The position numbers and the translations under genes were made by a program. From Giardia intestinalis (taxonomy: Eukaryota): 64,000 bases of DNA. The stretch lies in assembly GCA_000002435.2 (NCBI GenBank), contig CM018792.1. One strand, 5' to 3'. Each line of letters begins with the position of its first letter. Position 1 is the first letter of the stretch. This document shows, piece by piece, positions 18,898-41,469 of the stretch. The notes below the pieces were generated by a model, which ran no database searches, was not told where the DNA came from, and saw only the letters and a program-made list of their open reading frames with translations.

Positions 18898-21615
18898 TTA
18901 GTTCATGTAAATAGTGTCGCGCCCAACGTATGCACGGACAAGGAGGGCCAGGGCCCGCGATGCCCTGTCTGCCTTTTCAAAGACAACCACTCCGTGTTTC
19001 ATCATTTCCATGCGGAGCTCGTGGAACTTCCATCCTGAGTCGCAAACAAACACCCACGGCTTAGAGTACTCAGGGTTAGCATGAAGAGCAATGAAGCGCC
19101 TGCAGATGGAGTCCTCATCAGCGACGCAATTCTCCCCTATGAGGGCACCGACATTGCCTGCGGTGGTCTTGATGATGTGAGTCTCAGGAACGGCACTGAA
19201 GATCGCACAATCTACAGACAAGCTCTTGAGCAGGATCTCTGCTATCTCCTGGTACGCCCTATCAGGAATGGTTGGGGTCGTGTCTATGATGTCGCTTACA
19301 TCAACAACAGCGCCAATCTTGTACTTCTCGTAGATTGCTTTAATCGCCTCTTTGGTCTCTGAGTCATAAGTGGGAAGTCTAAAGTAGCTCCTGGACCTTT
19401 CATCGCATGGATCAATCGAGCGTGTGCTCAGCTCAAACAGATGGTCTGCAATGCAGCAACATTCGAAGCCTGCATTGGAAAGAGCGGTCACAGATACGTA
19501 TCCTTTCGCATCAAAGCCCTCGCGGAGCCTGTGGATTCTGGGCGCAATCCCAGAGGCCAGATAAATTACGTCGTCGAAACTATCAAATGAGTCACAGACC
19601 ACGGCACCAGCCATGTCCAGAAGCTCACTGAACATGCTGTAGTCACCTGCCAACGAGGCTGTGTGCCCTGCAGCGGCGCTGGATCCCTGCGGTGTGCGAC
19701 CAGATTTATATATGACGATAACCTTTCCGAGATCACGAGCTTGAGCAACCAACTTCATAAGACGAATGCCTTCGTTCATATTGAGGCCCTCCATGTAGAC
19801 ACCGATAACGCGGATTAAGCTCTTCTGGGCGTCTAGATCCTTAAGCTTGGCAAGGGCACGGGAATCAAGCGTATAACCTGCAGAAATCGCATTCCTCTCG
19901 TATGTGCTAGCAGAATCTTCCGTCAACAGCCATTCGATGAAGTCGGTTCCCGATAAGCAAAGCTGATTCCCAACAGATACGGACATGAGAGGACGAACCT
20001 TGTATGCCAAGTTCGACATTCTTGTTATCATGCTGGCACCAGACTGGCAAACCAGAGCAACATTGTTGTTTGGAGAGGCAATAGACCGGATTCTCACGTC
20101 CGAGGACTTGATGGTCAACTTCGACTTCGTCACCTCTAGATCACCCTGGTCATCAAATGCAATATTTGTCTGCAGATTTGTAAGAACATCATCAGAAGTA
20201 GACGACTTTGACTCAAGATAGAACTCGTTGGCTGAGGACTTTGCGGAACTGACAAAAATGGTGTTAACAAGATCCTGCCAGACAAACCCAAGCGTATTGG
20301 GGCCTGAAACAAGGGTGCGGTTGTAAGCAGCACCATAGGAATTCAGTTTCGTGCGTAAGCGTTCTTCTATCTCTTTTCCGTTGGCAGTCTCGGCAAATCC
20401 ACCGGACAAGACAAAGATGCTGTTACAGAGGTTACTGTCTATCAAATCGTTCATAACAAGCTCTGCAGCCTTTGCAGCGACGCCTACAACGGCCAAATCT
20501 ATAGCTTTACCTGCCCTAAATAACAGCAAGTCAGAAACAGTCTTGAAACACGGCCTGCCAAAGATTTCATCAGCAGTGGGGTGGATGCAGAAGACATCGA
20601 TTCCAGGGATCTCCATAAGCTTGCGCAACACGACAGTTGACGGATTTGTGAGACTCTTCGTCGATGCGCCGACGATGACAACGGATTGCGGAGCAAATAG
20701 GGAACCGACCTTGTAGAGAGGCTTGTGCGCACTATACACCGGGATGGCGTCCTCTGCTGTTGCGTATGCTTTGTAGCTAGGATTGGGCAAGATGCGAACA
20801 ACAGCATCAAGGGCGAGTAGATTGCCTGTCTCCCTCTCCACAACCGCAGGGTTGATCTCTATCTCACGTATGACATACTTCGTTGTCGCATTGTTTCTAC
20901 AATAGTGCCTCAGAAGTGCCTGCAAGATGCTCAATGGAGAAACCACCTGATCTATAGAGGAAATCAACCGCTTTGAGCCACGAACCTTGCCCAGTAGAAA
21001 TTGACTAACAGGCAAGCGCTCCAGAGCGGCCATAGCAGCAGTCGAGTTCGCTAGATTGATCCAACTCGGAAGAAAAATGGAAGAGTGTCCCTGGCGCATA
21101 ACCTTCTTGTAATATTCCACTCCAGTTCCTCCGAGACCGAAACAGACACAAGGCCCGAACCCGGTATCTTCAAAGGCAGAGATCAGAAGCTCGCCGTTCG
21201 ACATCCCACTGTCATAAAACTTCGCCATCTCGACGACAATGACACCCTCGAGGTTGTGGCCAGCGCTCTTGAGCTTGTTGACAAATGGTTCCAGGTCAGC
21301 CTCGATGTTCGAGCGGTCCTTGAAGAGCATGATCCCGCCGATGTCCGTCTTGTGGAGGCACCCGGGAATGTGGCACTTGATGACGTACTTCTGGTTGGGC
21401 TTCATGAAGGTCTTGATCTGGGAAGCCAGGGACGAATGCAGAGGGAAGTATCTGAACTCGGGAACCTTGATGCCGATTAGCTCGAAGAGCTCATACGCCT
21501 CGTACTCATAGAGGAGCCCGTCAGGGCGCGAGGAAGCCTGTTCAAAGATGCTTGCTATCTCAGCCTCATGCCTCAGGGCAAAGTAGTCCTCGTGATGGAA
21601 ATCGGACGGGAGCAT
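18898..21615 (-). CDS. NDP-forming acyl-CoA synthetase (ADP-forming acetyl-CoA synthetase family), fused beta-alpha arrangement (905 aa)
   Basis: ATG at 21615 (ccacaaaaATG). N-terminal ATP-grasp (EAYELFELIGIKVPE...KCHIPGCLHKTDIGGI). Then a CoA-binding Rossmann (SVVIVGASTKSLTNP), then a phosphohistidine-loop region (SSAAAGHTASLAGDY), then a C-terminal ligase-CoA domain. The recurring Rossmann/phospho-His/ATP-grasp motifs are those of succinyl-CoA-synthetase-like ACD enzymes. Confidence 0.7.
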   Translation of the reverse strand: MLPSDFHHEDYFALRHEAEIASIFEQASSRPDGLLYEYEAYELFELIGIKVPEFRYFPLHSSLASQIKTFMKPNQKYVIKCHIPGCLHKTDIGGIMLFKDRSNIEADLEPFVNKLKSAGHNLEGVIVVEMAKFYDSGMSNGELLISAFEDTGFGPCVCFGLGGTGVEYYKKVMRQGHSSIFLPSWINLANSTAAMAALERLPVSQFLLGKVRGSKRLISSIDQVVSPLSILQALLRHYCRNNATTKYVIREIEINPAVVERETGNLLALDAVVRILPNPSYKAYATAEDAIPVYSAHKPLYKVGSLFAPQSVVIVGASTKSLTNPSTVVLRKLMEIPGIDVFCIHPTADEIFGRPCFKTVSDLLLFRAGKAIDLAVVGVAAKAAELVMNDLIDSNLCNSIFVLSGGFAETANGKEIEERLRTKLNSYGAAYNRTLVSGPNTLGFVWQDLVNTIFVSSAKSSANEFYLESKSSTSDDVLTNLQTNIAFDDQGDLEVTKSKLTIKSSDVRIRSIASPNNNVALVCQSGASMITRMSNLAYKVRPLMSVSVGNQLCLSGTDFIEWLLTEDSASTYERNAISAGYTLDSRALAKLKDLDAQKSLIRVIGVYMEGLNMNEGIRLMKLVAQARDLGKVIVIYKSGRTPQGSSAAAGHTASLAGDYSMFSELLDMAGAVVCDSFDSFDDVIYLASGIAPRIHRLREGFDAKGYVSVTALSNAGFECCCIADHLFELSTRSIDPCDERSRSYFRLPTYDSETKEAIKAIYEKYKIGAVVDVSDIIDTTPTIPDRAYQEIAEILLKSLSVDCAIFSAVPETHIIKTTAGNVGALIGENCVADEDSICRRFIALHANPEYSKPWVFVCDSGWKFHELRMEMMKHGVVVFEKADRASRALALLVRAYVGRDTIYMN

Positions 21616-21766: not shown

Positions 21767-23950
21767 ATGGTTATCTGCACAGAAAGTAAAGCGGAGGCAG
21801 GCAGGATCAGAAGCTTGTCGGCCGGCGATAGTCGGCTTATCTTGGCAACCCAGCAATTTCCAGATCCGTATAAGGTCGTTAGCGCATTACTTGAGAATTC
21901 CTTGGATGCAGGTGCCTCAGAAATTGCAATTGTCTTAGAGGGCATGGGGCTCAAGAGTATCACTGTCAATGATAATGGATGTGGACTGGACTTATCTACT
22001 CTCCAAGCACTCGGGAGCTGTAGGGTCACGACAGCTACTTCTCAGCCAGGCAGCTTGAACCGTAAGGGCGAGTCTATCTTCTTAATATCTGCCTTAAGTA
22101 CAGTCTTAGTCACCAGCTCATTGGGAGACGACCCCTATGAAAGAGTTGTTAGTGAAGATACAAGCAGCGCAAAGCACGCCACACGAGCAGGCAGGGGGAC
22201 CACTGTTGTTGTTCAAGATCTATATAGATCAATCCCTGTTCGTCAAAGATACTTCTCGACTCCGTCTCTTCGCAAGAAGCTGCTTCTGTCCATCACTGAT
22301 CTGATTCAGTCATATGCACTGGCTAACTATACGCTGGGTTTTCGACTAATTGTGGATGGAGCTGTGCACATTGATGTCTCTTCGGGATCCAAGAATTCCA
22401 TCCACGACCGCTACGTTGAGCTTTTCGGCAGAGATGTTCGATCTCTCGTTGGTTTCTTTTCATTTGAAACGCGTCTGGGCTATACTGTTAAGGCCAGTCT
22501 TGCGTGCCCAGATGCAGGCATTACTCCGCAAAGTAAGCTGGGACATGCCCGTAAGATCTTTCTTTCTACCAATGGAAGGCCCATACTTTGTCCCTCGTTG
22601 ATTGAGGCCCTTCAGCAAGTGTATGCACGGATCTCTGCAACCAACGTTCCGATTGGCGCGTTAAATCTCGTGCTTCCGTTGGGGACTTATGCACTGGCAC
22701 GGAGCACACCCTATGACACTCTTCAAATGCAAGGGCTGAGCGTATTTATCGATCTCTTATCAGAGGAGTATCTTGCATGGCTCCTGAGATATAACAAATC
22801 GACAATCACAAATGGGCATCTGGGACGCGACGTTACTAGCAAGAGTTTGATAGTCAGAGCAGCTAAAGAGAAGTCAGTTAATTCACCATGTCCTAAATCT
22901 AGCTTTGGAGTTAGATCTCAGCAACGAGATACTGTGCCAGATAATATTGTCATCAGTCGCGTATCGCACACTAAGGCGGCATCCTTCTTCCATACGCGGA
23001 AGCCTGAATTACGTCAAGCATATCATTCTGAGACAAACACCAATACCGAACCACCCCCTGGAGGCACACCTTCAGTGCTGGGAATCGTTGGCTTTTCAAA
23101 GCTACAAAGCTCACTCTCCAATCCAGGTCCATCTGATGCTTCGGATTCCATAAAAGTTGAAAGTCAATCATGTGACCCTGAAAGCAAGGTGAGGATTGGA
23201 CCAGTAAGAAGAAGAGGCTCGGCATCGGGATTCAGACAGCAAGACTTTAATAATCTAAAGTACATATGTCAATATAACCAATCGTTCCTAATAACTCAGC
23301 TTAACAACACCTTCTACCTGATCGACCAACACGCAGCTCATGAAGCCAAGCATTTTAGCGACTACTGGCATAACCCACACTGCTACTTATCGAGGCAGAA
23401 GACTATCACACCCCTGAAGCTAAGGCTTCGACCAGATGAAAAGCTGTGTCTTGAGGAGTTTCTCTCTAGTGCGATATTTGATATTATTGGATTTGAACTG
23501 TGCTTGTCAGAGAATTACGTGCTTATTTTTTCTTTCCCATCTCTTTTTGGGCAAACTCTTACGGAGGAGGACTTCAGAGAGTACCTTTTGTCACTGTATG
23601 GACACACCAGGGAACATGTTGAGAGCATCATATGCGCCAAGAGTACTGGATCAAAACCCAGGGAGAAATCACTTCTCTGCTTACTGCATAATAATATAGC
23701 TCCGCCCAGAATTAGAAAAATCTTCGCGTCAAAATCATGCAAGGCCTCCGTACGCCTCGGAGACCCGCTCTTAGACTCAACTGCCAAACGTATCATTGCA
23801 GATCTGGCCCGTTGCGAGAAGCCATTTAACTGTCCCCATGGAAGACCTGTATTACGATTCTTAGACCTTGCGCCACGAGCAGATTCTACCGATGAAGATC
23901 TGCCCCATGCAGAAGAATTACACAGTGATGTGATCAATAGCGAGGACTAA
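21767..23950 (+). CDS. DNA mismatch repair MutL homolog, PMS1/PMS2-type (727 aa)
   Basis: ATG at 21767. GHKL ATPase motifs ALLENSLDAGASEIAI and VNDNGCGLD at the N-terminus. The C-terminus carries DQHAAHE (endonuclease DQHAxxE motif) and FNCPHGRP (conserved MutL C-terminal CPHGRP). Confidence 0.75.
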   Translation: MVICTESKAEAGRIRSLSAGDSRLILATQQFPDPYKVVSALLENSLDAGASEIAIVLEGMGLKSITVNDNGCGLDLSTLQALGSCRVTTATSQPGSLNRKGESIFLISALSTVLVTSSLGDDPYERVVSEDTSSAKHATRAGRGTTVVVQDLYRSIPVRQRYFSTPSLRKKLLLSITDLIQSYALANYTLGFRLIVDGAVHIDVSSGSKNSIHDRYVELFGRDVRSLVGFFSFETRLGYTVKASLACPDAGITPQSKLGHARKIFLSTNGRPILCPSLIEALQQVYARISATNVPIGALNLVLPLGTYALARSTPYDTLQMQGLSVFIDLLSEEYLAWLLRYNKSTITNGHLGRDVTSKSLIVRAAKEKSVNSPCPKSSFGVRSQQRDTVPDNIVISRVSHTKAASFFHTRKPELRQAYHSETNTNTEPPPGGTPSVLGIVGFSKLQSSLSNPGPSDASDSIKVESQSCDPESKVRIGPVRRRGSASGFRQQDFNNLKYICQYNQSFLITQLNNTFYLIDQHAAHEAKHFSDYWHNPHCYLSRQKTITPLKLRLRPDEKLCLEEFLSSAIFDIIGFELCLSENYVLIFSFPSLFGQTLTEEDFREYLLSLYGHTREHVESIICAKSTGSKPREKSLLCLLHNNIAPPRIRKIFASKSCKASVRLGDPLLDSTAKRIIADLARCEKPFNCPHGRPVLRFLDLAPRADSTDEDLPHAEELHSDVINSED

Positions 23951-26900
23951 GTCTGCACTATGTTATTGTACAGTCCGTCTGCCAAGTGCTCTACATTTGT
24001 GCTTAGAACCACTCTGGAAAACTCAGTGGACTCAATTACTAAAATGTCTGAAATGACTTTTTGAACAGAGTACCCATCGGGCAAAGAAACCATTACCCTT
24101 GCCTCGACAGCTTCGTCCCATATGAGAATATTAAGAAGGAAGCAAACCGTTGTGGGAAGCAGTGGAACACATGCGGTGCACAAACGATCTAAGGTTATGC
24201 CAGGACAAAGTGAAATGAGAGATATTATTTGGCGAAGAGATAGCTCCGCTTCGTATCTATTACCATCAGCATAATCTATAGAGCAGTTTGCAGGGCTGAT
24301 GGCAGAAAACTCCGTCGCAAACTGCTCATAGCTGGAACTTGCTAAGAAGGTCTCGAGAGGAACAAACACCGTTTCAGTTATTAGTCGTCTAGGGACGAAG
24401 AAACCGCTGCCTAGTAAAATATCTTTACTCTCTGGGCAGTTGAAAAGCGTCAGGCTTAAGTTAGTATCATTATACTTCTGCAGCAATATGTCTATGCCTT
24501 GTTTTTGTGTAGAATTACAATCTTCAGTCAAATTGACTAAGGGACAGACAAGCTCCAACCCAATCTCTTGGAAGCCCTGGATTGCGTCACCTATCATTGC
24601 GCTCACAGCGTCGTCCATGCCAGCATACGTCTCAAGGATATCTTCTACGGGGTTGAATGATGTATCTTCCTCACCAAATTCCAGATCAATTATAGAGCAG
24701 GGATCGATAATCCTGAGCTCTTCTATCGTGCTCCCTGATAGGCGGTACCGCTGACGATGTAGTCCAAACAGAATAGAAGGTAGGAGGAGAAAGGCATGGT
24801 GTACAGTCATTGTACCCATATCGATATTACTGAGGTAGCTATTTCGGCTATCGGCAGATATTAGGCTAGGCTTCTGTAGTGTTTTGGAAACTGAGTACCC
24901 CAAAGATCCGTATTCTTGTTGTCGAGCATACCCAGATGCCAACAGATATTGCAAAGAAAAGTCACTCATGCTATTACTAGCCATTGACTCAATGGCGCGA
25001 AGGGCGGCTCCATCGGCTGTAATGTTAACTTGAGATGGATTCCATAGCGTACATGCCATGAACATCCTGATTTCTCTGGCCCACTTGTGCTGCTGCAAGA
25101 TCACCTTGTTGCGAAAACTGCACACAATATCCCGCAACCTCTGACACGCTAATGCTTTCCCGTTACTGGTGTCGTTAAGGAGTACATTTGTAGAGTGTAT
25201 TATTGCATTGCACAAGTAAGGCAAGCACAAGAAGCTAATGAGACTTTGAATGGTGTCGCCGCTTCGTGATAGACTTTGTTTTTCAGTATAATCTGTTCTT
25301 CTTAGAAGAAGACGGTGTGTACTATAACATACTTTGAGAGCGCGCTGATCTGTGTTATATGTTATGATAGGGTTGGCATGGTGGAGCATATTGCACGATA
25401 AAATACACTGTATTAGAAGAGATATATGCTCCTCCGCATCTATCATGTGGGAACAATCATAACAGGTAGCTGGACTTGCAGACGATTGACGGGCGATATC
25501 GTTGCACAGCAAGAGAAAACCGGGCTGCCAAAGATCAAAGAATCTCTTGTCGTACACATATGTTATGCAATCAGGGTCAGCTGCTCCTTCAAAATCAAAT
25601 TCCACCTTAAGGGAATCTGAGTTTATGCAGTTGATAAGAATGTCTTTTTCAATCAGTAGCTTAGATTGTAATTTTTTAGACGGAGATTGGTTTATTTTAT
25701 TAGTCAATAAGTACAGCAGGTTGGCCACTCTGACCGTTTCAGATGGATCAGAAAGTTGCCTTTCTCGATAGGTGTTACGGACAATGGACGTAATTACATC
25801 TGAGAACTTTCCTAAGAGCAAGCTTCTCTCCTTAGCTGATGGAAGATCTATGAGGACATCTATCTCTGGGCTTACAAGAGAAAGCGCGGCCATTGAATAT
25901 ATCCGTCCGTACGTGATAAAATCCCTCTTTGTTGCGTTGGTTTTTATGTACTTTTCAATCACAGCTGTTAAGGTACAACTGGATTGTTCTTGCAATAAAG
26001 CTACCACGCCGTCCTCTTCACTGTTGGGCTTGCTAGAAGCATATCCTCTCATCCATGGTGATACTACACGAAATAGGGACATATAATGCATCATGCAGTG
26101 CTCCCAATATCGAAGTTCATCATCACTCAAGCTAATATATCGGCGTGATGCTCTGTATTGTGCTACCATCTCTGTGAGGTCCTCTACTGTCAACGCACGT
26201 ACTTGCTCCGTGGGATGGTTCTTGGGTTCTGATTCCTCGCATAGCAAGAGTGCAAATTCTTCACGAAGATGCAGCTCTTGTTTCTGCTTATGTCTTTGCC
26301 TTTGCAATGCAGGTGTGAGACGTGAAGAGCGAGCAGACCGCATTCGCTGGATGTCTCTGTTATACTTTTGAAAGATTGATGCTCCTGTAGCCTTCATTGC
26401 AGCAATTGATTCGGTGCTGAATGCCAATAGCCAAGGACTATTTGTAAACAAGGACATGGAGCAGTACTCGGTTCCCCTACTGTCAGTAGGCTGCATGTTA
26501 ATGGAGAGAGACGACGAATTACCCCCTCTGGGCCTCATGTTCAGTAGCACCTTATCAACCCAGTATGAAACTGGAGCAGAAGCTCGAGCCACAAGGGCCT
26601 GAGAAAGCTGAACCTTATGTACTTTATGCCTGGTATCTGGTACGCACTGAATGAGGATATTCTTATCTATGTCTTCGGGCTTCAAAGAAACACTGGGAAT
26701 GTAAACACAATGTTGAGGATTGTGGTCATTAGGTTCGGATTGGCTCAGGAAATCATAAAAGGCCAATGTGACGATCTTCATAGAGTGCAGAATAAAGTGC
26801 AAAGTGTTCCACTGGGAAGAGCGATAGTACTCAAAGGCTTTATCCAGCGAGCCATCAAAGTGAAGATCTAGGTACTTTAAAGGCAGATCGCTCACAGCTG

Positions 26901-29900
26901 CAGTGGCTAAGCTGTGATAGTCCAGTATAAGCAGATTCGTGACAGAGTGCTGCAGACTTGCTCTTGCGTAGCTACACTCCTCGGCCTCAAAGAGCCTTTG
27001 CAGCTCCTTCTGCACTGCACCCATAAATGCATTGATGTGAACAATGACACCTTGTTGGCCTATAGTATCGCAAAGAGACATGGCTGCTTCCTGGGCTTTG
27101 GACACAGACGATTGGATAGTGGAGGCAAAATCTAAATCACCCAGTCGTTCCTTCAAAAATGCCAGTGTTTCTGAATTGACTATCCACGAACGTATCAGGG
27201 TATAGATAGCTAGCTCATTGCACAAGCAGGATAAGCTTATTGGTCCCTCATCTGTGCACAGCTTTAAAGCCATGTACACGCGCAAAGAAAAGTCCTCTAG
27301 AAGCGACCAGAACAGCACTAGCTCCTGTTCTGTAGAAACAGAGATGGGCTCCAGAAGCTCTATGCTTATGGTGTCAGCTTCATGAACTGCTCTGATTGTG
27401 GCCCCAATGCCAGATACGTAAAGCGAGGAGTACAGAGCTGACAAAACGTTATTCAGTATAATGGGGTGTCTCTTAAGATCACTAAGCTTTAGCGAAGGAA
27501 GATGCGAAACCGTCCTATGAATATGATTCTTGATCTTAGCATCTGGCTGTTCAATGGACCAGTGAAGAACATCTATATGCTGGAGCCACTCACGATATTT
27601 TCCCATTCTTAGAACAAAAAAATTATTAAGCACCAATAAATAAAGTGCCGGATTGCTCACTTTATAAATAAAAGTATTGGGAAAAGAAAGCAGATAGGGC
27701 AAGAAAAGATGGTAGAGGGGAGAAGATTCTGGGAAAGGAAACAGGTATGCATATTCTGAGAAGGTAAGAGCCTCGCAAAGAGATATGTCAGACACAGATG
27801 AATGAGCCATGTCCTTGATTGATTGCAAGAGTACGATGTGCAGGAGCATGAGCTTGCGCAGAGTGTACTTTCTCTTTGTGCGAGAGATATCAGCCTTAAT
27901 AGCCATAAGCGTCTCAGAACAAGAAGAAAGATATGCAGAGACTTGAGCCATTGACTGTTCGCTCCGTGTGGACCCTGCTAAGACTACAACTTTTACGTTG
28001 GAGCGCTTCACATGACTATTCAAATCATGGAGAAATACATCTGTGCTTTCATAACCAGTCAATTCTGGCATGCAAGAGGTCATCCAGGATAGAGTAGATG
28101 ACTCAGACCCAGAGGACAGCTCTGCACTACCTTCTCGGCCAGGATCATTAAGGTAGTCTTGTTCGAGGTCAGCACCTATGCCTGCGTCTGTCTCGTCACG
28201 AGCTAGCAAAGTTGGAAGAGTGGATAGGTAGACCTTGAGACGATCTAAAAGATTCGGCATATTCTGAAGAAACCCAGAGGTAGGAGAGTCACCAAGTTCG
28301 TGCGTATCCATTACAAATATATCTGAACGATAGTAAACAGTACATGTCTTTGCGCCTATTGACACAGAAGACTCGAGTATGTACCCTGTCTCCAGAAGGT
28401 AATCAATTGACCGCTGCACAACCTTTCTGTCTGTCTTTTTCTTTGTTAGGTCTTTGAATCCATAAGAGAGTGGAAAGGAGGTATATACCTCTGCAGGAAG
28501 CAGTGAAGCAAGTTGGACAAGATCTTGCTGGATGTATAGCGGTGTGAGCCGAAAGAAGCTGAGAATAAGCTGTGCTTTGGCACTCATTGCAATATTTCTC
28601 TGAGTATCATATGTTATAAGGGCACACTCGAGAGCATCAGGAAAGAAGCAGCCCAAAGGTGTTAGAATAGGTGTGCTGGGCTTCTGAGGAGCATTATCTG
28701 TTGGTGTGGCGCACAGAAGCGTCTGCTTAAGAGGAGAGTCTTCCTCCTGATGCATCTCATGAACAGTTATACTATTTGTAGATAAGCTGACACTGAGGGC
28801 AGAGCTAGTGGGGCCACTATGATTAGTTGAAAGAAAGCCAGCAAGGCGGGAATAACCATACCTGATTTTGCGCTCAAATGATCGTCTAGAGCCAGACCCA
28901 GAGGATGTCTTCGCAGGGGAGTCGAAAAGAGGCGTGTAAAGAGCTTGAGGTCCATGAGGAAAGTACCAATATTTGAACGCCCCCGATTCCTCGGACTTTA
29001 CAACGGGAAAAGAGGAGACTAGGACGTCTGAAATCCATTCCATGACCTTTCGTGCTAGACAGAATTGGTCTCTCAAATTAGTAAGCTGAATGCCTTCTTC
29101 TCCAGCCTGAAAAATCTTTATAAGTAGGAGCTCTGTCACAGTAGATACCCTATTTCCATAAGTGAGTGGAATTAAAAGACTTACTTCGATAGGAGTAAAT
29201 CCATCAATGGGATACAAGGTCAGTGATGGTAAGACTTGCTGCGCTGATGCAAGGGTTTGCGCGGAAGTAAGAAAAAGAAAGTTGGGGCTAAATGTCATAG
29301 GAGACATGGGGCTCATATGAAAGATGTTCTGCGAGCCCTTGTTTTCACGGCGGATTGCACTAAGAGGCTTGAAACTGAGACTTTGGGGTGTCAAAAAGCG
29401 AGAGTATACCAGTGTATCCCCCAATTTTACATAGCTTCCTAGAACACCTGCCTTATCGAGGGCAGTCGTAATAGTGTCAAGCTGAACATTGAGAGTTTTA
29501 CGAGCCTTTGCGGAATCTACGCCTAGTTCCTTAATAAAGTGATCTAGGATGTCCTCGTATGCTTGCTCTCTTCCAGTAGAGGCTAGATACTGACACACCA
29601 TCATGGCAGTGGGAGCCTTTTGGCCTTCTGGCTGGTGAGAATGAGCCCCAAAGCTGCTTAACCCCCGAGTATACTCTATAAATGCTTCACGCAACTCTTC
29701 ATCAGATCTCCTACCAAGAAAGATGGTGGCCCACACGATGTTGGATGTGTTAGTTCCCCAGTAGTCCTTGATTGCCCCTGTAAGTGTCACAGAAAGTGAA
29801 TACACCAGTCTGTTTCCTGATAAGATCTTAATGAAGCGAGACACCTGCCGACTGTCCAGCTTAGTCTTTGAAGAAATTTCCGTGGCAAGAATTCCGTGAG

Positions 29901-30204
29901 AAAAGGATGCAGCGACGGCACGAAACACAGGCTCACCATCTTCCGAGAGTCGCGTGTTCTTGGTCCCTAATACTTCCGCAGACCAACTAGGAGATGGATA
30001 AATTCGCTCGCCGAAGTCAGTAAAGCCAGGGTACTTCCTGAAAAACTCAAAGAGGCGGCGGGAAGCCTCTGAAACATCGTTAGCAGCCGAGAATTTTGGC
30101 TGCTCTAGACGAAGAAAAGTCTCTATCTCCTCCAGAGATGCCCCATTGGGTCCCTGGATGGCCATGAAGAACTTCGTGAATTGTGCGATTTGATGCCAAA
30201 ACAT
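23947..30204 (-). CDS. Giant hypothetical protein (2085 aa); N-terminus winged-helix-like
   Basis: ATG at 30204 with an in-frame TAG immediately upstream. Uninterrupted 6.26-kb ORF. Its stop overlaps the MutL stop by 4 bp in a convergent arrangement. Confidence 0.85.
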   Translation of the reverse strand: MFWHQIAQFTKFFMAIQGPNGASLEEIETFLRLEQPKFSAANDVSEASRRLFEFFRKYPGFTDFGERIYPSPSWSAEVLGTKNTRLSEDGEPVFRAVAASFSHGILATEISSKTKLDSRQVSRFIKILSGNRLVYSLSVTLTGAIKDYWGTNTSNIVWATIFLGRRSDEELREAFIEYTRGLSSFGAHSHQPEGQKAPTAMMVCQYLASTGREQAYEDILDHFIKELGVDSAKARKTLNVQLDTITTALDKAGVLGSYVKLGDTLVYSRFLTPQSLSFKPLSAIRRENKGSQNIFHMSPMSPMTFSPNFLFLTSAQTLASAQQVLPSLTLYPIDGFTPIEVSLLIPLTYGNRVSTVTELLLIKIFQAGEEGIQLTNLRDQFCLARKVMEWISDVLVSSFPVVKSEESGAFKYWYFPHGPQALYTPLFDSPAKTSSGSGSRRSFERKIRYGYSRLAGFLSTNHSGPTSSALSVSLSTNSITVHEMHQEEDSPLKQTLLCATPTDNAPQKPSTPILTPLGCFFPDALECALITYDTQRNIAMSAKAQLILSFFRLTPLYIQQDLVQLASLLPAEVYTSFPLSYGFKDLTKKKTDRKVVQRSIDYLLETGYILESSVSIGAKTCTVYYRSDIFVMDTHELGDSPTSGFLQNMPNLLDRLKVYLSTLPTLLARDETDAGIGADLEQDYLNDPGREGSAELSSGSESSTLSWMTSCMPELTGYESTDVFLHDLNSHVKRSNVKVVVLAGSTRSEQSMAQVSAYLSSCSETLMAIKADISRTKRKYTLRKLMLLHIVLLQSIKDMAHSSVSDISLCEALTFSEYAYLFPFPESSPLYHLFLPYLLSFPNTFIYKVSNPALYLLVLNNFFVLRMGKYREWLQHIDVLHWSIEQPDAKIKNHIHRTVSHLPSLKLSDLKRHPIILNNVLSALYSSLYVSGIGATIRAVHEADTISIELLEPISVSTEQELVLFWSLLEDFSLRVYMALKLCTDEGPISLSCLCNELAIYTLIRSWIVNSETLAFLKERLGDLDFASTIQSSVSKAQEAAMSLCDTIGQQGVIVHINAFMGAVQKELQRLFEAEECSYARASLQHSVTNLLILDYHSLATAAVSDLPLKYLDLHFDGSLDKAFEYYRSSQWNTLHFILHSMKIVTLAFYDFLSQSEPNDHNPQHCVYIPSVSLKPEDIDKNILIQCVPDTRHKVHKVQLSQALVARASAPVSYWVDKVLLNMRPRGGNSSSLSINMQPTDSRGTEYCSMSLFTNSPWLLAFSTESIAAMKATGASIFQKYNRDIQRMRSARSSRLTPALQRQRHKQKQELHLREEFALLLCEESEPKNHPTEQVRALTVEDLTEMVAQYRASRRYISLSDDELRYWEHCMMHYMSLFRVVSPWMRGYASSKPNSEEDGVVALLQEQSSCTLTAVIEKYIKTNATKRDFITYGRIYSMAALSLVSPEIDVLIDLPSAKERSLLLGKFSDVITSIVRNTYRERQLSDPSETVRVANLLYLLTNKINQSPSKKLQSKLLIEKDILINCINSDSLKVEFDFEGAADPDCITYVYDKRFFDLWQPGFLLLCNDIARQSSASPATCYDCSHMIDAEEHISLLIQCILSCNMLHHANPIITYNTDQRALKVCYSTHRLLLRRTDYTEKQSLSRSGDTIQSLISFLCLPYLCNAIIHSTNVLLNDTSNGKALACQRLRDIVCSFRNKVILQQHKWAREIRMFMACTLWNPSQVNITADGAALRAIESMASNSMSDFSLQYLLASGYARQQEYGSLGYSVSKTLQKPSLISADSRNSYLSNIDMGTMTVHHAFLLLPSILFGLHRQRYRLSGSTIEELRIIDPCSIIDLEFGEEDTSFNPVEDILETYAGMDDAVSAMIGDAIQGFQEIGLELVCPLVNLTEDCNSTQKQGIDILLQKYNDTNLSLTLFNCPESKDILLGSGFFVPRRLITETVFVPLETFLASSSYEQFATEFSAISPANCSIDYADGNRYEAELSLRQIISLISLCPGITLDRLCTACVPLLPTTVCFLLNILIWDEAVEARVMVSLPDGYSVQKVISDILVIESTEFSRVVLSTNVEHLADGLYNNIVQT

Positions 30205-33961: not shown

Positions 33962-34801
33962 TCAGAAGATGTCGTTATTATCGTTTCCGGCAATGTCATC
34001 CGTCAAGAAGGTGTTGCCTCGAACTTCACGCTGGTTATTTATGATATCCTGTGCAAAATCGTCATCGTTGTAATCATCGTAGTCTTCCTTGTACTCAGCT
34101 TCCTGTGGCTTCGAGACTGGCGGCGGCTGGGGTGCTTCTACCTGTTCCTTAAAGCACTCAGTATCAAAGGTGTCGTCATCATCGGTCGGTGCAGTGTAGT
34201 CATTATTAGAAGTACGATTCAAAAAGTCCTCGGTTCTGTAGGAGTCCTCCTTGGGGGTGTACCTTTGTCGGTGGGCCCTGACAGAAGGCAAAGATGAATT
34301 GCGAGACGACCGGTCATAGTTGTAGCTAGACATCCCGGCGGACGCAGGAGGGTATTCGGACAGATGCTCAAGATCCTTTCTGGAACGAATGTAGTCGGCC
34401 TCGAGCTTCTGAACAGAATGAGTGGGCTTGACGCTAGAGATCTGGCGGTGGATCCTTTGGTTCTCTGCTTCTATTTCGCGCACCCTCTTCTCGCGCATGA
34501 GAATATTGAGGGACTTCGGACCTTGCTGCTTCAGATGGCAGTCGATGCGCGCCGGGTGGCGTAGTTCGTTATGATAGTCAATTCGTCTCAAAAGAATATG
34601 ATTTTCGCGGTTTATCTGTTCAAGACGTTCGTTTGCTTCGTAGAGCTTCTTAGAACGACACTCAAGATGCGGCTGTCTCGGCGGTGTCTTGTTGTCCACA
34701 GCCGCCTTCATGGACGCCTTCTTCTTCTCGTGCGCTTGCTTATCCCTCTCGACCCAGATCTTTTGGAGGTACTTGGATGCAACGGGTATACCTCTATCCA
34801 T
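33962..34801 (-). CDS. Hypothetical coiled-coil protein with acidic C-terminus (279 aa from first ATG)
   Basis: Track start 34885 is TTG. The first ATG is 34801 with a classic AT-rich upstream (ctcaaaattacaataaaatccaaaaattaATG). K/R/E-rich heptad-like sequence, then a D/E/Y-rich tail. Confidence 0.65.
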   Translation of the reverse strand: MDRGIPVASKYLQKIWVERDKQAHEKKKASMKAAVDNKTPPRQPHLECRSKKLYEANERLEQINRENHILLRRIDYHNELRHPARIDCHLKQQGPKSLNILMREKRVREIEAENQRIHRQISSVKPTHSVQKLEADYIRSRKDLEHLSEYPPASAGMSSYNYDRSSRNSSLPSVRAHRQRYTPKEDSYRTEDFLNRTSNNDYTAPTDDDDTFDTECFKEQVEAPQPPPVSKPQEAEYKEDYDDYNDDDFAQDIINNQREVRGNTFLTDDIAGNDNNDIF

Positions 34802-34939
34802 TAATTTTTGGATTTTATTGTAATTTTGAGATCCCAGCAGGTCAGATCTCTGAGTAGAAACATGGAACTGAATAGTACACAACAAGCATACAGCGCTGTC
34901 CTTTATACCTGTGGAATCATCATCGTCAGAAGGCCGTCT

Positions 34940-35863
34940 CTAATCCTCGGCAACTTCACTAATATTTGAGCTACGATTGCTCGTAGTACTGGCAAAGGAT
35001 CTCAGGTGTATGGCAAACTCGGCATGTGAGTCGGACATATTGCTGCACACGGCTGGATCTATTTCTATCTCATCTTGGGTGCCGTGAATGTTCACAAAGG
35101 AAGCTTGCACAGGTGACGCCAAGGACCGAACAGACGGAACTGTTTCAACGCTCTCAAAAGAGCCACGGAACAAGTGAGCAGGGTCTACCTTAAAGCGGGA
35201 CACCAGCAAGGACGGATTGGTCGCATCCTCTTTATAGGTCATTGAACCTGGAACTATGTACCGTGGAGACACCGTTCCCGAAAAATCTGCCGGAACCTCA
35301 GCACTGAAAACGGTACCGGACAGGGAGACGATATTGGATATAGATTCTGCAACCCTCTGCTTTCGATTTTCTTCTCCTGCGACACACATGGCTGCTACGA
35401 AGGGTCCGAGGTCATACTCTGCATTAGAAGACCGGCTTCCGGATGATCTTTTCCCATGCTTGTTGGATCGGTGTCGTGACTTATCCTTCCCGTTGTACTT
35501 GTGCCCCTTCCAGGCGGAGGAAACCAAGTTGGGATTTGTATAGATGAAGGAGTAAACAGGCTTCGAGAGAGCGTCAGATCCCTCTTGTGAGAGGCCGTAG
35601 CTCATGCTCAGCTTGTCTGTGGTTGATGGCTCATCAGCTAATGGCTTCCTTTTCTCTCTGACCGTGCGATCCTTGCGTTTGCTAGTATTTTCTGTAAGCA
35701 TCTGAACCGCCAAGGACAGGGGAGAAAGCGGCCTCGCAGAAGCTATTACACAACTGGAAGCCTTTCTCTTGCTCTGCTTACATCCAGGTGCATGGCTCAG
35801 AGGTTGATACCTGTCGCCACCTGGCTTTCCAGGTGCTGTTTCTGGAACAGTAGAAACTTTCAT
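34940..35863 (-). CDS. Hypothetical Ser-rich protein (307 aa)
   Basis: ATG at 35863. No recognisable domain. Basic Ser-rich middle region (KDKSRHRSNKHGKRSSGSRSS). Confidence 0.55.
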   Translation of the reverse strand: MKVSTVPETAPGKPGGDRYQPLSHAPGCKQSKRKASSCVIASARPLSPLSLAVQMLTENTSKRKDRTVREKRKPLADEPSTTDKLSMSYGLSQEGSDALSKPVYSFIYTNPNLVSSAWKGHKYNGKDKSRHRSNKHGKRSSGSRSSNAEYDLGPFVAAMCVAGEENRKQRVAESISNIVSLSGTVFSAEVPADFSGTVSPRYIVPGSMTYKEDATNPSLLVSRFKVDPAHLFRGSFESVETVPSVRSLASPVQASFVNIHGTQDEIEIDPAVCSNMSDSHAEFAIHLRSFASTTSNRSSNISEVAED

Positions 35864-37175: not shown

Positions 37176-38963
37176 CTACGCCTTTCCGCGGCAGATGAAC
37201 CACCAACACAAGAAGCCCACGAGGCCCCCAACGACAACAATCACAGCGACGGAGATCCCCGCGATGGCCCCCGTGGAGAGCCCGCCCCTGTTGGCGCCAG
37301 AGGACACACACCTGCCACCCTCCAGCTTGTAGTCGTCCCCGCACTGGCCGCACTTGTTCTCCTCGCTGCACCTGATACACCCGTCGATATTGCAGGCGAT
37401 GCACTTCGTTCCGTCTGTGTCCGGTCTCTGGTCTTTACTGGTACAGGCCTCGCACTTGCCGCCTGCTCCACAGTGCGAGCATCCGTCAACGGTACATGCG
37501 AAGCACCCGCTCCCAGCCAGGTTGGGCTTGTTGTTGCCGCTACACGCTGTGCACGTGGCGGGGGCCATGCCAGGAGCCTCTAGCGCTGCTGGGGCCGTGC
37601 ATGCTGTGCAGCCATATACCCCCACATATGCCTTAGCGGTGCTGCCAGCCCCTATCACTGTGCCAAGGGGGTTCTCGCAGGCCAGGACAGACTGATCAGT
37701 ACTGGATGCCCCCGGGACCAGGAAGTACCGGCCGTTCTCGCTGGGGGCGGTGCACCTCCCTCCCTCGGCAGTCTTGCACATATAGCTACCAGGAGCCTTC
37801 GACACATCATAGCAGCCGCCCATGTACAGGAAGTACCCGGCAGCACACCGGGTGCAGACGCCGTTCTCGCAGGTGTTGTCACCTTTAGTTCCTGTGCAGA
37901 TCCCATCGATGGGGAACGTGGCGGGGTCTCCGCACAGCGAGCAGTACTGGGAGAACGCCCCGGCGCTGTCAACGACGACCGCCCCGCAGGCCCCAGACGT
38001 CCCCCCGCAGGCCGTGGGGTCCTCGCAGGCCTTTGTGCACTTCACCGGATTGGTTCCCTCCTTGCGATAGTTGGACTTGCAATCGGTGCATGTAGGGGTT
38101 AGGCCGCTGTTACATTGGGAGCACCCCTCGATGCCATTGTCGGCTTTACTGTCGCAGGCGAAGCACTTACCAGCAGAGCCGGGTTGTTTCATGAAGAATC
38201 CAGGCTTGCATTTAGTGCACTGATCATTGCCAGCAGCAGAGCATGTAGCACAGTTGGCACCGCAAGCTGTGCATGTATCAGAACCAAAGTATCCGTCGAG
38301 GCAAGCTGAGCAGGTCGGCTTGGCTCCGTTCTTCTTACACGTTTTACAATTAGCAATCCCCTTGTCGTTTGCTTCTGTTCCTGTTGTTGTATCACTGCAT
38401 AATATGCACTTGGTGCTATCATCACTCAGAAAGTGGGATCCGTCGACGTTATCTGTTGCGCACCCAGCATCATCGACGCAAGTGGTTGTCCCATCCAGCT
38501 CTGTCTTCACCTTCTTATTGTTACAGGCGGTGCACTGGGGCTTGCTGACAGTCGTGTTGTACTCACACGCGGTGCAATCTGCTATACCAGACTCCTTGCA
38601 TGTCCTTGTCACAGGGTCAGCATAAGTGTTTCCTTCACATGTAGGTGAACAGGTATTATCGCTTTTCAGATACTTCCCCTCCTTACAGGATGTGCAATGA
38701 TTCGGACCACTTCCACTGCAAGTCAGACAGGACTGATCACACTGATTGCATTCGTTATTCTCTTTATAGTACCCCTCTTGACAGGCAGTGCACGTGGCTG
38801 CCCCCTTATTATTAGTTGGTGCCGTACATGTGGCACAGCCCTCGACTCCCTTCGTCGCGCCATCTCCCACCGTGTCCCAGCAGAGGATGCACTCATTACC
38901 AGGAGTCACTGTTGCAGCCGGGTTCTTGAACAGGCCGTTAGCTGTGTTACAAGCAGTGCACAC
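37176..38963 (-). CDS. Variant-specific surface protein (VSP), 5'-truncated copy lacking a start codon and signal peptide; likely pseudogene or silent cassette
   Basis: Ends ...GGLSTGAIAGISVAVIVVVGGLVGFLCWWFICRGKA* followed by AGTAAAC (37161-37167 on the forward strand). CXXC-rich throughout. The track 'M' at 38963 is actually GTG. An in-frame TAG lies 3 codons upstream. No in-frame ATG occurs until ~aa 256. There is no hydrophobic N-terminal signal sequence. Confidence 0.7.
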   Translation of the reverse strand: MCTACNTANGLFKNPAATVTPGNECILCWDTVGDGATKGVEGCATCTAPTNNKGAATCTACQEGYYKENNECNQCDQSCLTCSGSGPNHCTSCKEGKYLKSDNTCSPTCEGNTYADPVTRTCKESGIADCTACEYNTTVSKPQCTACNNKKVKTELDGTTTCVDDAGCATDNVDGSHFLSDDSTKCILCSDTTTGTEANDKGIANCKTCKKNGAKPTCSACLDGYFGSDTCTACGANCATCSAAGNDQCTKCKPGFFMKQPGSAGKCFACDSKADNGIEGCSQCNSGLTPTCTDCKSNYRKEGTNPVKCTKACEDPTACGGTSGACGAVVVDSAGAFSQYCSLCGDPATFPIDGICTGTKGDNTCENGVCTRCAAGYFLYMGGCYDVSKAPGSYMCKTAEGGRCTAPSENGRYFLVPGASSTDQSVLACENPLGTVIGAGSTAKAYVGVYGCTACTAPAALEAPGMAPATCTACSGNNKPNLAGSGCFACTVDGCSHCGAGGKCEACTSKDQRPDTDGTKCIACNIDGCIRCSEENKCGQCGDDYKLEGGRCVSSGANRGGLSTGAIAGISVAVIVVVGGLVGFLCWWFICRGKA

Positions 38964-38993
38964 TCCACTACTGGCCTTTGTGCATATCTCACT

Positions 38994-39050
38994 CCACTAT
39001 CACCCTCTATCATCACCCTCTATCACACACTATCACCTTCTATCACACAT
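38994..39050. repeat. Phased CTATCAC repeat (5 copies at ~10-bp spacing) between the two tandem VSP genes
   Basis: CTATCAC at 38997, 39007, 39019, 39029 and 39039 (forward strand; GTGATAG on the VSP coding strand). Confidence 0.7.
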
Positions 39051-39072
39051 TGTACAGCATTCACTACCTAAG

Positions 39073-41447: not shown

Positions 41448-41469
41448 TCCCTGATGATATCATCAGGGA
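41448..41469. repeat. 22-bp perfect palindrome TCCCTGATGATATCATCAGGGA in the divergent VSP/HCMP intergenic region
   Basis: Read directly: the first half ccctgatgat is the reverse complement of atcatcaggg, and the flanking t/a extend it to 22 bp. Confidence 0.8.

What the first reader, a model, noticed from the sequence alone, without database searches (positions are those of the whole stretch)
18898..21615. NDP-forming acyl-CoA synthetase with beta-alpha (ATP-grasp first) domain order
The ORF encodes all five ACD domains in one chain. The order is ATP-grasp, then CoA-binding, then phospho-His loop (GHTASLAG), then ligase-CoA. That is the reverse of the alpha-beta fusion that characterises the known Giardia/Entamoeba ADP-forming acetyl-CoA synthetase. 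It may therefore be a second, differently permuted paralog with different acyl specificity, or a protein-acetylation-related enzyme.
Basis: partly seen in the sequence, partly recalled or inferred. Interest (0 to 1): 0.5.

Follow-up and report, generated by a model that had tools for sequence, protein, structure and literature searches.

The report
Giardia's uncharacterised ATP-grasp-first acyl-CoA synthetase

Summary
Window 18898-21615 (-) is a 905-aa ORF, identical to Giardia intestinalis WB GL50803_16667 ("Acyl-CoA synthetase", XP_001709605.1). Its domain order is ATP-grasp, linker, CoA-binding, phospho-His domain (GHTASLAG, His651), then ligase-CoA-like domain 5.

The architecture is not new. 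This [3-4-1-2-5] order is that of Nitrosopumilus 3-hydroxypropionyl-CoA synthetase (PDB 9y43, the best sequence and fold match) and of the Archaeoglobus acetate-CoA ligase model.

The residues aligned with the catalytic His69, Glu462 and His503 of 9y43 are conserved (His88, Glu609, His651). There is no GNAT domain, so a protein-acetylation role is unsupported.

The gene belongs to a large colinear family:
- a second Giardia paralog, GL50803_86511;
- copies in Spironucleus, Hexamita, Dysnectes, Anaeramoeba and Stygiella;
- hundreds of bacterial species, where it usually sits in an iorA-iorB-acd operon.

Most likely it is a working ADP-forming acyl-CoA synthetase with a substrate other than, or broader than, acetyl-CoA. 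The substrate is untested.

One side finding: a 358-nt stretch of the ATP-grasp region is kept nearly identical between the two Giardia paralogs by recurrent gene conversion.

Verdict: new member of a known kind, modest interest.

The parts
18898..21615 (-). Complete CDS of GL50803_16667, 905 aa plus stop: NDP-forming acyl-CoA synthetase with domain order [3-4-1-2-5]
   Evidence: ORF list; exact match to XP_001709605.1/A8B4I3; gene ID from PMC4510421 Table 1
20791..21537 (-). ATP-grasp domain (subdomains 3-4), aa 27-275. Contains LHKTDIGG (His88, window 21334-21357), the EIEINP Mg/ATP motif (aa 251-256) and Asp270.
   Evidence: Pfam ATP-grasp_5, E 1.5e-32. His88 aligns with His69 of Nmar_1309 and with the equivalent His of the ckcACD1 beta subunit. 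Fold match to 4xyl_B/4xz3_B, TM 0.79-0.81. Coordinates.
21177..21534 (-). Gene-conversion tract shared with the paralog GL50803_86511: CDS nt 82-439, aa 28-146
   Evidence: Only 4 mismatches in 358 nt, all synonymous third positions, against about 45-50% mismatch on either side. Within-lineage paralog identity is 100%, 98.3% and 99.2% in assemblages A, B and E, against 46% for the rest of the protein. Lineage-specific substitutions are shared by both paralogs.
20701..20790 (-). [quoted passage not shown]
   Evidence: Lies between the Pfam domains. The model shows mostly coil here. Nmar_1309 has a linker at the same junction.
20254..20700 (-). CoA-binding Rossmann domain (subdomain 1), aa 306-454, with VGAST (Gly316, Ser318)
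   Evidence: Pfam CoA_binding_2, aa 311-411. Aligns with 4xyl_A residues 6-147. Gly316 and Ser318 are invariant in 49 family members.
20080..20253 (-). Giardia-16667-specific Ser-rich insertion, aa 455-512, predicted disordered
   Evidence: pLDDT below 50 over 455-512. Absent from all the other sequences of alignment A1 except the assemblage-B ortholog (P0002).
19546..20079 (-). Subdomain 2 (flavodoxin-like Succ_CoA_lig), aa 513-690, with Glu609 (YMEG) and a helical insertion at about aa 565-598
   Evidence: Pfam Succ_CoA_lig, E 2.5e-26. Glu609 aligns with Glu462 of Nmar_1309. Helices at 568-578 and 585-598 in the model.
19645..19668 (-). Phosphohistidine 'swinging loop' motif GHTASLAG, aa 650-657, with His651
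   Evidence: Position. His651 aligns with His503 of Nmar_1309. H651, T652 and A653 are invariant in 49 family members.
18901..19545 (-). Subdomain 5 (ligase-CoA-like), aa 691-905, with invariant Asp724 and Asp778
   Evidence: No Pfam hit. Covered by the structural superposition on the full ACD alpha subunit and on 9y43. Aligns with domain 5 of alpha-beta fused homologs. Invariant residues.

Best explanation
The ORF is GL50803_16667, one of two Giardia paralogs of a single-chain NDP-forming acyl-CoA synthetase (ACD superfamily) with domain order [3-4-1-2-5]. By analogy with solved relatives, I propose this mechanism. An acyl-CoA and phosphate react at a site formed by subdomains 1, 2 and 5 (domain 5 coming from the partner monomer of a homodimer) to give acyl-phosphate and CoA. 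The phosphoryl group passes to His651 on the mobile GHTASLAG loop. The loop swings to the N-terminal ATP-grasp domain. There, with help from His88, ADP is phosphorylated to ATP. The reaction is reversible; in a fermenting cell the ATP-yielding direction is the likely one.

Shown here: the architecture, the fold, the conservation of catalytic residues, and family membership.

Inferred: activity, dimerisation, direction, cytosolic location and substrate.

My best guess for the substrate is an acyl-CoA other than, or broader than, acetyl-CoA, for example one derived from an amino-acid 2-oxoacid. The reasons are that the bacterial relatives are usually translationally coupled to an indolepyruvate-type 2-oxoacid:ferredoxin oxidoreductase, and that Giardia already has a dedicated alpha-beta acetyl-CoA synthetase (GL50803_13608).
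For: Pfam domains and their order.

The best PDB sequence hit is 9y43, a 3-hydroxypropionate-CoA ligase (ADP-forming), colinear over aa 20-443 and 599-684.

The AlphaFold model (pLDDT 75, pTM 0.81) matches 9y43 best (E 1e-39, TM 0.83), then the ACD alpha and beta subunits.

His88, Glu609 and His651 align with His69, Glu462 and His503 of Nmar_1309, which that paper names as catalytic.

These residues, plus the ATP-grasp Lys80, Glu251, Glu253, Asn255 and Asp270, are invariant or at least 90% conserved in 8 close and 49 diverse family members.

An exhaustive HMM search lists 150 cluster representatives with E below 1e-111. Most match as one colinear stretch in proteins of about 730-800 aa.

528 relatives were found in GTDB species genomes. 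Of the best 80 loci, 71 have enough upstream DNA to judge. In 46 of those 71, iorA and iorB lie on the same strand. In 40 loci the iorB ORF ends immediately upstream of the ACD ORF start, commonly with a 4-bp overlap. The pathway from 2-oxoacid oxidoreductase through acyl-CoA to ACD and ATP is established in archaea (PMC3942289).

Outside the conversion tract, the protein is 90.8% identical between assemblages A and B and 95.4% between A and E. I read that as purifying selection.
Against: No enzymatic, expression or localisation data exist for this gene. The only paper that names it suggests it may be a CoA-binding protein rather than a synthetase (PMC4510421).

NCBIfam scores (118-132 bits) are far below the equivalog cut-offs (1200-1300). 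It is therefore not an ortholog of any characterised enzyme, and no substrate can be transferred to it.

The IOR link comes from bacteria. I did not, and could not, test whether Giardia encodes an IOR-type enzyme. From my own knowledge it has fused PFORs.

The bacterial context also varies: 16 of the 71 loci lack IOR, and one close prokaryotic relative sits beside CoA-transferase genes.

The protein carries two lineage-specific insertions (aa 455-512 and about 565-598) whose effect is unknown.

The 8-sequence alignment gives only a moderate-confidence model.
Confidence: 0.7

Rival explanations
1. It is a non-catalytic CoA-binding or regulatory protein that has kept the ACD fold but lost synthetase activity, as suggested in passing by Guo et al. 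2015.
For: [quoted passage not shown] Pfam misses domain 5 and scores CoA_binding_2 weakly. There are large lineage-specific insertions, including one of 58 disordered residues.
Against: Both histidines, Glu609 and the ATP-grasp Mg/ATP-binding motif are conserved in both Giardia paralogs and across the whole family. The full five-domain fold is retained. Bacterial relatives are translationally coupled to an acyl-CoA-producing oxidoreductase.
Confidence: 0.1
2. It works mainly in the synthetic direction. It would use ATP to activate a short-chain or other organic acid taken from the gut lumen into its CoA thioester. This is what Nmar_1309, with the same domain order, does for 3-hydroxypropionate.
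For: The closest solved structure and sequence hit is an acid-activating enzyme with the same order. ACD reactions are reversible (family knowledge). Giardia cannot make fatty acids de novo and relies on scavenged acids (PMC4510421 abstract).
Against: Identity to Nmar_1309 is only about 20%, and the score is an order of magnitude below the equivalog cut-off. The much closer bacterial relatives sit downstream of an acyl-CoA-generating IOR, which points to the ATP-yielding direction. Giardia has five AMP-forming long-chain acyl-CoA synthetases for acid activation.
Confidence: 0.15
3. It is a protein-acetylation-related (Pat/PatZ-like) enzyme, in which the ACD-like module regulates or feeds an acetyltransferase.
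For: Many of the more distant database hits are bifunctional ACD-GNAT proteins. E. coli PatZ appears among the fold matches (9it0_A, E 1e-18).
Against: There is no GNAT domain in the 905-aa chain. Pat-type proteins have the alpha-beta order followed by GNAT (Pfam lists). PatZ matches only the alpha part, with TM 0.42-0.43. The closest family of about 750-aa proteins also lacks GNAT.
Confidence: 0.03

Closest known systems
[quoted passage not shown]
   Same: [quoted passage not shown] It is the best sequence hit in the PDB (E 1.6e-25) and the best fold hit (E 1e-39, TM 0.83). His69, Glu462 and His503 correspond to His88, Glu609 and His651.
   Different: Identity is only about 19-20%. The NCBIfam HydPropCoALig score is 118 bits against a cut-off of 1300, so it is not an ortholog. 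The Giardia protein is 200 aa longer because of insertions. The organism and pathway differ: an archaeal CO2-fixation cycle versus a fermenting protist.
Archaeoglobus-type acetate-CoA ligase (ADP-forming), NCBIfam NF045494
   Same: It is a fused single chain with the ATP-grasp first. The model is colinear with the bacterial family member P0146 over positions 2-662 of 665. In the model, the CoA-binding domain of the Giardia protein maps to positions 218-352.
   Different: The score is 132 bits against a cut-off of 1200. This is a different subfamily, so acetate specificity cannot be transferred.
Giardia ACS1 (GL50803_13608) and Entamoeba ACD, ADP-forming acetyl-CoA synthetases
   Same: Same superfamily, same organism, and the same five domains with the phospho-His mechanism.
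   Different: Opposite fusion order, alpha-beta or [1-2-5-3-4] (Sanchez et al. 2000, my own knowledge; not re-tested here). It is a separate gene and a separate orthogroup. The metamonad ACS1/ACS2/ACS3 literature that I read does not mention the beta-alpha family.
Uncharacterised bacterial beta-alpha ACDs in iorA-iorB-acd operons (Acidobacteriota, Gemmatimonadota, Bdellovibrionota, Planctomycetota, Spirochaetota and others)
   Same: They are colinear over the full length, at about 25-32% identity, with HMM E-values from 1e-111 to 1e-180 and the same invariant residues.
   Different: They are about 740 aa and lack the Giardia insertions. They are operonic with IOR subunits, which cannot apply in Giardia. 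They are also uncharacterised, so they supply context but no biochemistry.
Pat/PatZ protein lysine acetyltransferases and the DddX DMSP lyase (ACD-superfamily offshoots)
   Same: They share the ACD-like modules and are recovered as distant sequence or fold hits.
   Different: They have the alpha-beta order. Pat has a C-terminal GNAT domain, which is absent here. TM is only 0.40-0.43 when normalised to the query.

Membership tests
NDP-forming acyl-CoA synthetase (ACD) superfamily | Five subdomains: CoA-binding (1), phospho-His flavodoxin-like (2), ATP-grasp (3-4), ligase-CoA-like (5) | tested here: met
   Pfam finds 3-4, 1 and 2. Domain 5 is shown by superposition on the full ACD alpha subunit (TM 0.81-0.85) and on 9y43, and by alignment A1.
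NDP-forming acyl-CoA synthetase (ACD) superfamily | Phosphorylatable His on the mobile loop of subdomain 2, with its partner Glu | tested here: met
   His651 in GHTASLAG aligns with His503, and Glu609 with Glu462, of Nmar_1309. His651 is invariant and Glu609 at least 90% conserved.
NDP-forming acyl-CoA synthetase (ACD) superfamily | Second His in the ATP-grasp domain (His71-beta of P. furiosus ACD) and Mg/ATP-binding acidic residues | tested here: met
   His88 in LHKTDIGG aligns with His69 of Nmar_1309 and with the VHKSDVGG motif of 4xyl_B. Glu251, Glu253, Asn255 and Asp270 are at least 90% conserved.
NDP-forming acyl-CoA synthetase (ACD) superfamily | Catalysis of acyl-CoA + NDP + Pi <-> acid + CoA + NTP | not testable with these tools
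   No biochemical data were found for GL50803_16667 or GL50803_86511. Only one paper in the library names them.
[3-4-1-2-5] (beta-alpha fused) ACD architecture class | ATP-grasp N-terminal to subdomains 1-2-5 in a single polypeptide | tested here: met
   Domain order from Pfam. Colinear match to 9y43 and to NF045494.
3-hydroxypropionate-CoA ligase / Archaeoglobus acetate-CoA ligase equivalogs (NCBIfam NF045492, NF045494) | Whole-protein score above the curated equivalog cut-off | tested here: not met
   118 bits against 1300, and 132 bits against 1200.
Characterised Giardia/Entamoeba ADP-forming acetyl-CoA synthetase (ACS1 type) | Alpha-beta fusion order and orthology to GL50803_13608 | tested here: not met
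   The order here is beta-alpha. The gene ID and orthogroup differ. The sequence of 13608 was not available to me for a direct alignment.
Pat/PatZ-type protein acetyltransferase | C-terminal GNAT acetyltransferase domain after an ACD-like module | tested here: not met
   No GNAT family hit at E up to 0.1. Pat-type hits all list PF00583 or PF13302.
Succinyl-CoA synthetase / ATP-citrate lyase | Domain 5 attached to the ATP-grasp chain (3-4-5 + 1-2); for ACLY also a citryl-CoA lyase module | tested here: not met
   Domain 5 follows subdomain 2 here. SCS-beta models score only 22-24 bits. ACLY fold matches have TM 0.22-0.27.

The most novel reading that the evidence does not exclude
Giardia and other anaerobic protists (diplomonads, Dysnectes, Anaeramoeba, the jakobid Stygiella) may carry an overlooked second class of substrate-level-phosphorylation enzyme. 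This would be a beta-alpha ACD related to bacterial enzymes that partner with indolepyruvate-type 2-oxoacid oxidoreductases. It would make ATP from non-acetyl acyl-CoAs, for example those derived from amino acids. The ACS1/ACS2/ACS3 accounts of metamonad energy metabolism that I read do not mention it. In Giardia the two paralogs are kept identical over a 358-nt ATP-grasp segment by recurrent gene conversion in at least three assemblages. That may be because this segment must fit a shared partner or interface.
Probability: 0.25. Interest if true: 0.55.

Novelty: new member of a known kind. Interest (0 to 1): 0.3.

Why it matters
ATP supply in Giardia is usually described as glycolysis, the arginine dihydrolase pathway and one ADP-forming acetyl-CoA synthetase. 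Two further conserved and apparently catalytically intact ACD paralogs imply at least one more acyl-CoA to ATP (or acid to acyl-CoA) reaction that nobody has assigned.

The same family is present in several free-living and parasitic anaerobic protists. It is absent from the evolutionary accounts of ACS1-3 that I read. Those accounts are used to reconstruct how mitochondrion-related organelles lost ATP synthesis.

A recent structural paper states that, in its phylogenetic tree, these ACD groups are not found in Eukarya (PMC13018889). This gene family contradicts that statement.

In practical terms the finding is a curation and assay target, not a new kind of enzyme.

Tried and rejected
1. I tested whether this family is the 'divergent', hydrogenosome-located ACS of Spironucleus salmonicida. 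Rejected: that protein is SS50377_10513 / EST49290.1, in the OrthoMCL group of Giardia 13608. The Spironucleus members of this family are P0007 and P0134 (EST44983.1).

2. The word-indexed homolog search missed almost the whole bacterial family. Repeating it with a 49-sequence alignment added nothing. Only the exhaustive HMM search and the genome scan revealed it.

3. The genome scan with a 30-sequence alignment failed for lack of a conserved 7-10-column stretch. It was repeated with 8 sequences.

4. Supplementary files of the Spironucleus hydrogenosome paper and the metamonad paper are not held, so their ACS trees could not be checked.

5. Literature searches for A8B4I3, GL50803_16667 and GL50803_86511 found only Guo et al. 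2015.

6. I considered inferring substrate from pocket residues. The Nmar_1309 paper text gives no pocket residue list that I could map, so I dropped this.

7. The eukaryotes as a pure monophyletic LGT clade is not supported. The 19-sequence clade (NJ bootstrap 100/100) also contains contigs with prokaryote-like gene content, P0135 and P0141. The NJ tree is rough, and the conversion tract biases the grouping of the two Giardia paralogs.
Full report
**1. What is there**

Window 18898-21615 (minus strand) is a single 905-aa ORF with an ATG start and a TAA stop. The sequence is identical to XP_001709605.1 / UniProt A8B4I3, annotated "Acyl-CoA synthetase" in Giardia intestinalis WB clone C6. The flanking ORFs are the Giardia proteins GL50803_16668 and Pms1. 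Guo et al. 2015 list XP_001709605 as GL50803_16667 (PMC4510421).

The window is therefore Giardia chromosome sequence. A G+C-rich cluster of VSP genes at 37-44 kb fits this. An A-rich stretch precedes the start codon, inside a 151-bp divergent spacer shared with Pms1. The stop codon lies 10 bp from the convergent neighbour. From my own knowledge, that is the usual compact Giardia layout.

**2. The observation**

Pfam gives the following, in this order:
- ATP-grasp_5 at aa 27-275 (E 1.5e-32)
- CoA_binding_2 at aa 311-411 (E 4.7e-08)
- Succ_CoA_lig at aa 577-684 (E 2.5e-26)

GHTASLAG is at aa 650-657.

An AlphaFold2 model built on eight homologs has mean pLDDT 75 and pTM 0.81. It superposes best on PDB 9y43: Foldseek E 1e-39, TM 0.83 normalised to the target, 887 columns. 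Residues about 300-905 superpose on the whole alpha subunit of Korarchaeum ACD1, which comprises domains 1, 2 and 5 (TM 0.81-0.85). The C-terminal part also aligns with domain 5 of alpha-beta fused homologs.

In detail: all five ACD subdomains are present, in the order 3-4, 1, 2, 5.

**3. Is the order unusual?**

No. The best PDB sequence match is Nmar_1309, the ADP-forming 3-hydroxypropionyl-CoA synthetase of Nitrosopumilus maritimus. It is colinear with the query from the ATP-grasp into the CoA-binding domain. [quoted passage not shown]

The NCBIfam model for the Archaeoglobus acetate-CoA ligase has the same order. The query's CoA-binding domain maps to model positions 218-352 of 665. A bacterial family member matches the model colinearly over positions 2-662.

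The scores to these characterised enzymes are 118-132 bits, against equivalog cut-offs of 1200-1300. The Giardia protein shares their architecture but is not their ortholog.

**4. Catalytic equipment**

Combining the phmmer alignment with the residues named in the Nmar_1309 paper:
- His88 (LHKTDIGG) corresponds to His69, the ATP-site histidine.
- Glu609 (YMEG) corresponds to Glu462.
- His651 corresponds to His503, at the tip of the swinging loop.

His88 also aligns with the VHKSDVGG motif of the Korarchaeum beta subunit.

In a 49-sequence alignment of the family, His651-Thr652-Ala653, Gly316, Ser318, Asp724 and Asp778 are invariant. His88, Lys89, Lys80, Glu251, Glu253, Asn255, Asp270 and Glu609 are at least 90% conserved. 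The second Giardia paralog keeps them as well. Nothing suggests a dead enzyme.

No GNAT domain is present, which sets the protein apart from the Pat/PatZ-type hits.

**5. The family**

The word-indexed search found only a handful of close relatives. These were Giardia assemblages, a second Giardia paralog, Hexamita, two Dysnectes sequences, Spironucleus, Anaeramoeba and Aduncisulcus.

The second Giardia paralog is GL50803_86511 (XP_001710279.2, 902 aa in the current annotation).

The exhaustive profile search changed the picture. It gave 18,739 hits at E up to 1e-3 and 2,742 at E up to 1e-30. The best 150 cluster representatives all have E below 1e-111. Most match as one colinear stretch over nearly the full profile, in proteins of about 730-800 aa. 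Named members include a second Spironucleus paralog and the jakobid Stygiella incarcerata.

A scan of one genome per prokaryotic species found 528 relatives. The best 80 come from Acidobacteriota, Gemmatimonadota, Bdellovibrionota/Oligoflexia, Planctomycetota, Spirochaetota, Latescibacteria and others.

In a neighbour-joining tree, all named eukaryotic sequences fall in a 19-sequence clade. It is separated from 50 randomly chosen sequences from the rest of the set in 100 of 100 bootstraps. At least two members of that clade lie on contigs with prokaryote-like gene content. The direction and number of transfers therefore remain open.

**6. Functional context in bacteria**

I clustered all ORFs of the 80 bacterial loci. 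Two neighbours are conserved:
- a protein of about 540 aa (POR_N + TPP_enzyme_C; NCBIfam IOR_alpha at 513 bits, below its cut-off of 651)
- a protein of about 190 aa (POR; indolepyruvate oxidoreductase subunit beta at 275 bits, above its cut-off of 222)

Of the 80 loci, 71 have enough upstream DNA to judge. In 46 of those 71, both genes lie on the same strand as the ACD gene. In 40 loci the iorB ORF ends immediately upstream of the ACD ORF start, commonly overlapping it by 4 bp. This is the classic arrangement for 2-oxoacid to acyl-CoA to acid plus ATP, known from archaeal peptide fermentation (PMC3942289).

Other contexts exist. Sixteen loci lack IOR, among them Gemmatimonadota loci. One Gemmatimonadota locus carries CitF and a thiolase. 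One close relative sits beside CoA-transferase subunits.

This supports a true synthetase role and hints at non-acetyl substrates. It is indirect evidence for Giardia, whose own 2-oxoacid oxidoreductases I could not examine.

**7. What the literature says**

Only Guo et al. 2015 name the gene. They list 16667 and 86511 as unnamed "ACS-related" proteins with an ATP-grasp_5 domain, probably acquired laterally and "more likely CoA-binding proteins than ACS".

Papers on metamonad energy metabolism discuss ACS1 (the 13608 type), ACS2, ACS3 and a Spironucleus hydrogenosomal ACS. That hydrogenosomal ACS is SS50377_10513, in the 13608 orthogroup, so it does not belong to this family. None of the passages I read in these papers mentions the beta-alpha family.

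The Nmar_1309 paper says that, apart from SCS and citrate lyase, none of the groups in its tree occur in Eukarya. Both this family and Giardia ACS1 show otherwise.

**8. Side finding: gene conversion**

Over most of their length the two Giardia paralogs are 46% identical. Over aa 28-146 they are far closer:
- 100% identical in assemblage A (WB)
- 98.3% identical in B
- 99.2% identical in E (P15)

I assigned the two assemblage-B sequences as follows. P0002 is named as strain ATCC 50581. P0126 is called B-type because it shares the B-specific substitutions with P0002.

Substitutions specific to one lineage are shared by both paralogs of that lineage. These are P31L and I79V in E, K114R and S117D in B, and Glu45 in A. 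This is the signature of repeated conversion after the assemblages split.

At the DNA level I compared the window gene with the 86511 locus on a metagenomic Giardia contig. That contig's protein differs from the WB protein at 2 of 902 residues. CDS nt 82-439 show only 4 mismatches, all synonymous third positions. The sequence on either side mismatches at about half of all positions, and the upstream DNA is unrelated. The tract covers window 21177-21534 and includes the His88 motif.

The 27-aa N-terminal leader is exchanged between the paralogs in assemblage B relative to A and E.

Outside the tract, 16667 has diverged about three times more than 86511 between A and B: 9.2% against 3.0%.

**9. 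Verdict**

The reading "a second, differently permuted ACD paralog" is right as far as it goes. The permutation itself is a known arrangement, the gene is already annotated, and a protein-acetylation role has no support.

The most likely function is a working ADP-forming acyl-CoA synthetase. I put the probability of catalytic competence at about 0.7. The substrate is unassigned and possibly non-acetyl.

This is a new, uncharacterised member of a known kind. Interest is modest. It is raised slightly by the unnoticed spread of the family among anaerobic protists, the IOR-linked bacterial relatives, and the gene-conversion tract.

Noticed in passing
window 21177-21534 (-), compared with L001:6157-6514: A 358-nt segment of the ATP-grasp region (aa 28-146) differs at only 4 synonymous sites from the paralog GL50803_86511, while the rest of the two genes is about 50-65% identical at DNA level. 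Lineage-specific substitutions are shared by both paralogs in assemblages A, B and E, which indicates recurrent gene conversion with sharp, conserved boundaries.
   Followed up: yes
window 21535-21615 (-), aa 1-27; proteins P0002, P0126, P0069, P0123, P0125: The 27-aa N-terminal leader occurs in two types (HHEDYFALRHEAE... and HSDHFNEHANAAA...). Relative to assemblages A and E, the two types are swapped between the 16667 and 86511 orthologs in assemblage B. I did not check whether this is real reciprocal exchange or an assembly or annotation effect in the B genomes.
   Followed up: partly
L004:3768-8217 and 45 other bacterial loci among L002-L081: In bacteria, the closest relatives of the Giardia protein sit in a conserved iorA-iorB-acd operon: indolepyruvate-type 2-oxoacid:ferredoxin oxidoreductase alpha and beta subunits, then the beta-alpha ACD. 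The iorB stop commonly overlaps the ACD start by 4 bp. I found no paper describing this operon or this bacterial family.
   Followed up: yes
L085:3225-7172: One prokaryotic member of the eukaryote-containing clade (P0141) lies directly downstream of two CoA-transferase subunit genes (PF01144) instead of IOR. This suggests a different route for supplying the acyl-CoA.
   Followed up: no
window 18898-21615 versus P0125/P0126/P0002: Outside the conversion tract, 16667 has diverged about three times more than 86511 between assemblages A and B (9.2% against 3.0% amino-acid differences). Only 16667 carries the 58-residue Ser-rich disordered insertion (aa 455-512, window 20080-20253).
   Followed up: partly
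window 37176-44313: The G+C-rich stretch of the window (53-57% against about 47%) holds three ORFs that match the Giardia variant-specific surface protein family: 37176-38963 (-), 39073-41070 (-) and 41812-44313 (+).
   Followed up: partly
window 18887/18898 and 23947-23950: Gene packing is very tight. The convergent stops of GL50803_16668 and 16667 are 10 bp apart. The Pms1 ORF (ending at 23950) overlaps the convergent 2085-aa ORF (23947-30204, -) by 4 bp, so the 3' ends of the transcripts must overlap.
   Followed up: no
window 33962-34885 (-) and 34940-35863 (-): Two adjacent same-strand ORFs have exactly the same length (307 aa). The first matches Hmw_CFAP97 (E 1.3e-17); the second has no Pfam hit. 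I did not test whether they are tandem duplicates.
   Followed up: no
literature: PMC13018889 (Fig. 4 legend): The Nmar_1309 structure paper states that, apart from SCS and citrate lyase, none of the ACD groups in its tree are found in Eukarya. The beta-alpha family described here (Giardia, Spironucleus, Hexamita, Dysnectes, Anaeramoeba, Stygiella) and Giardia ACS1 contradict this.
   Followed up: partly
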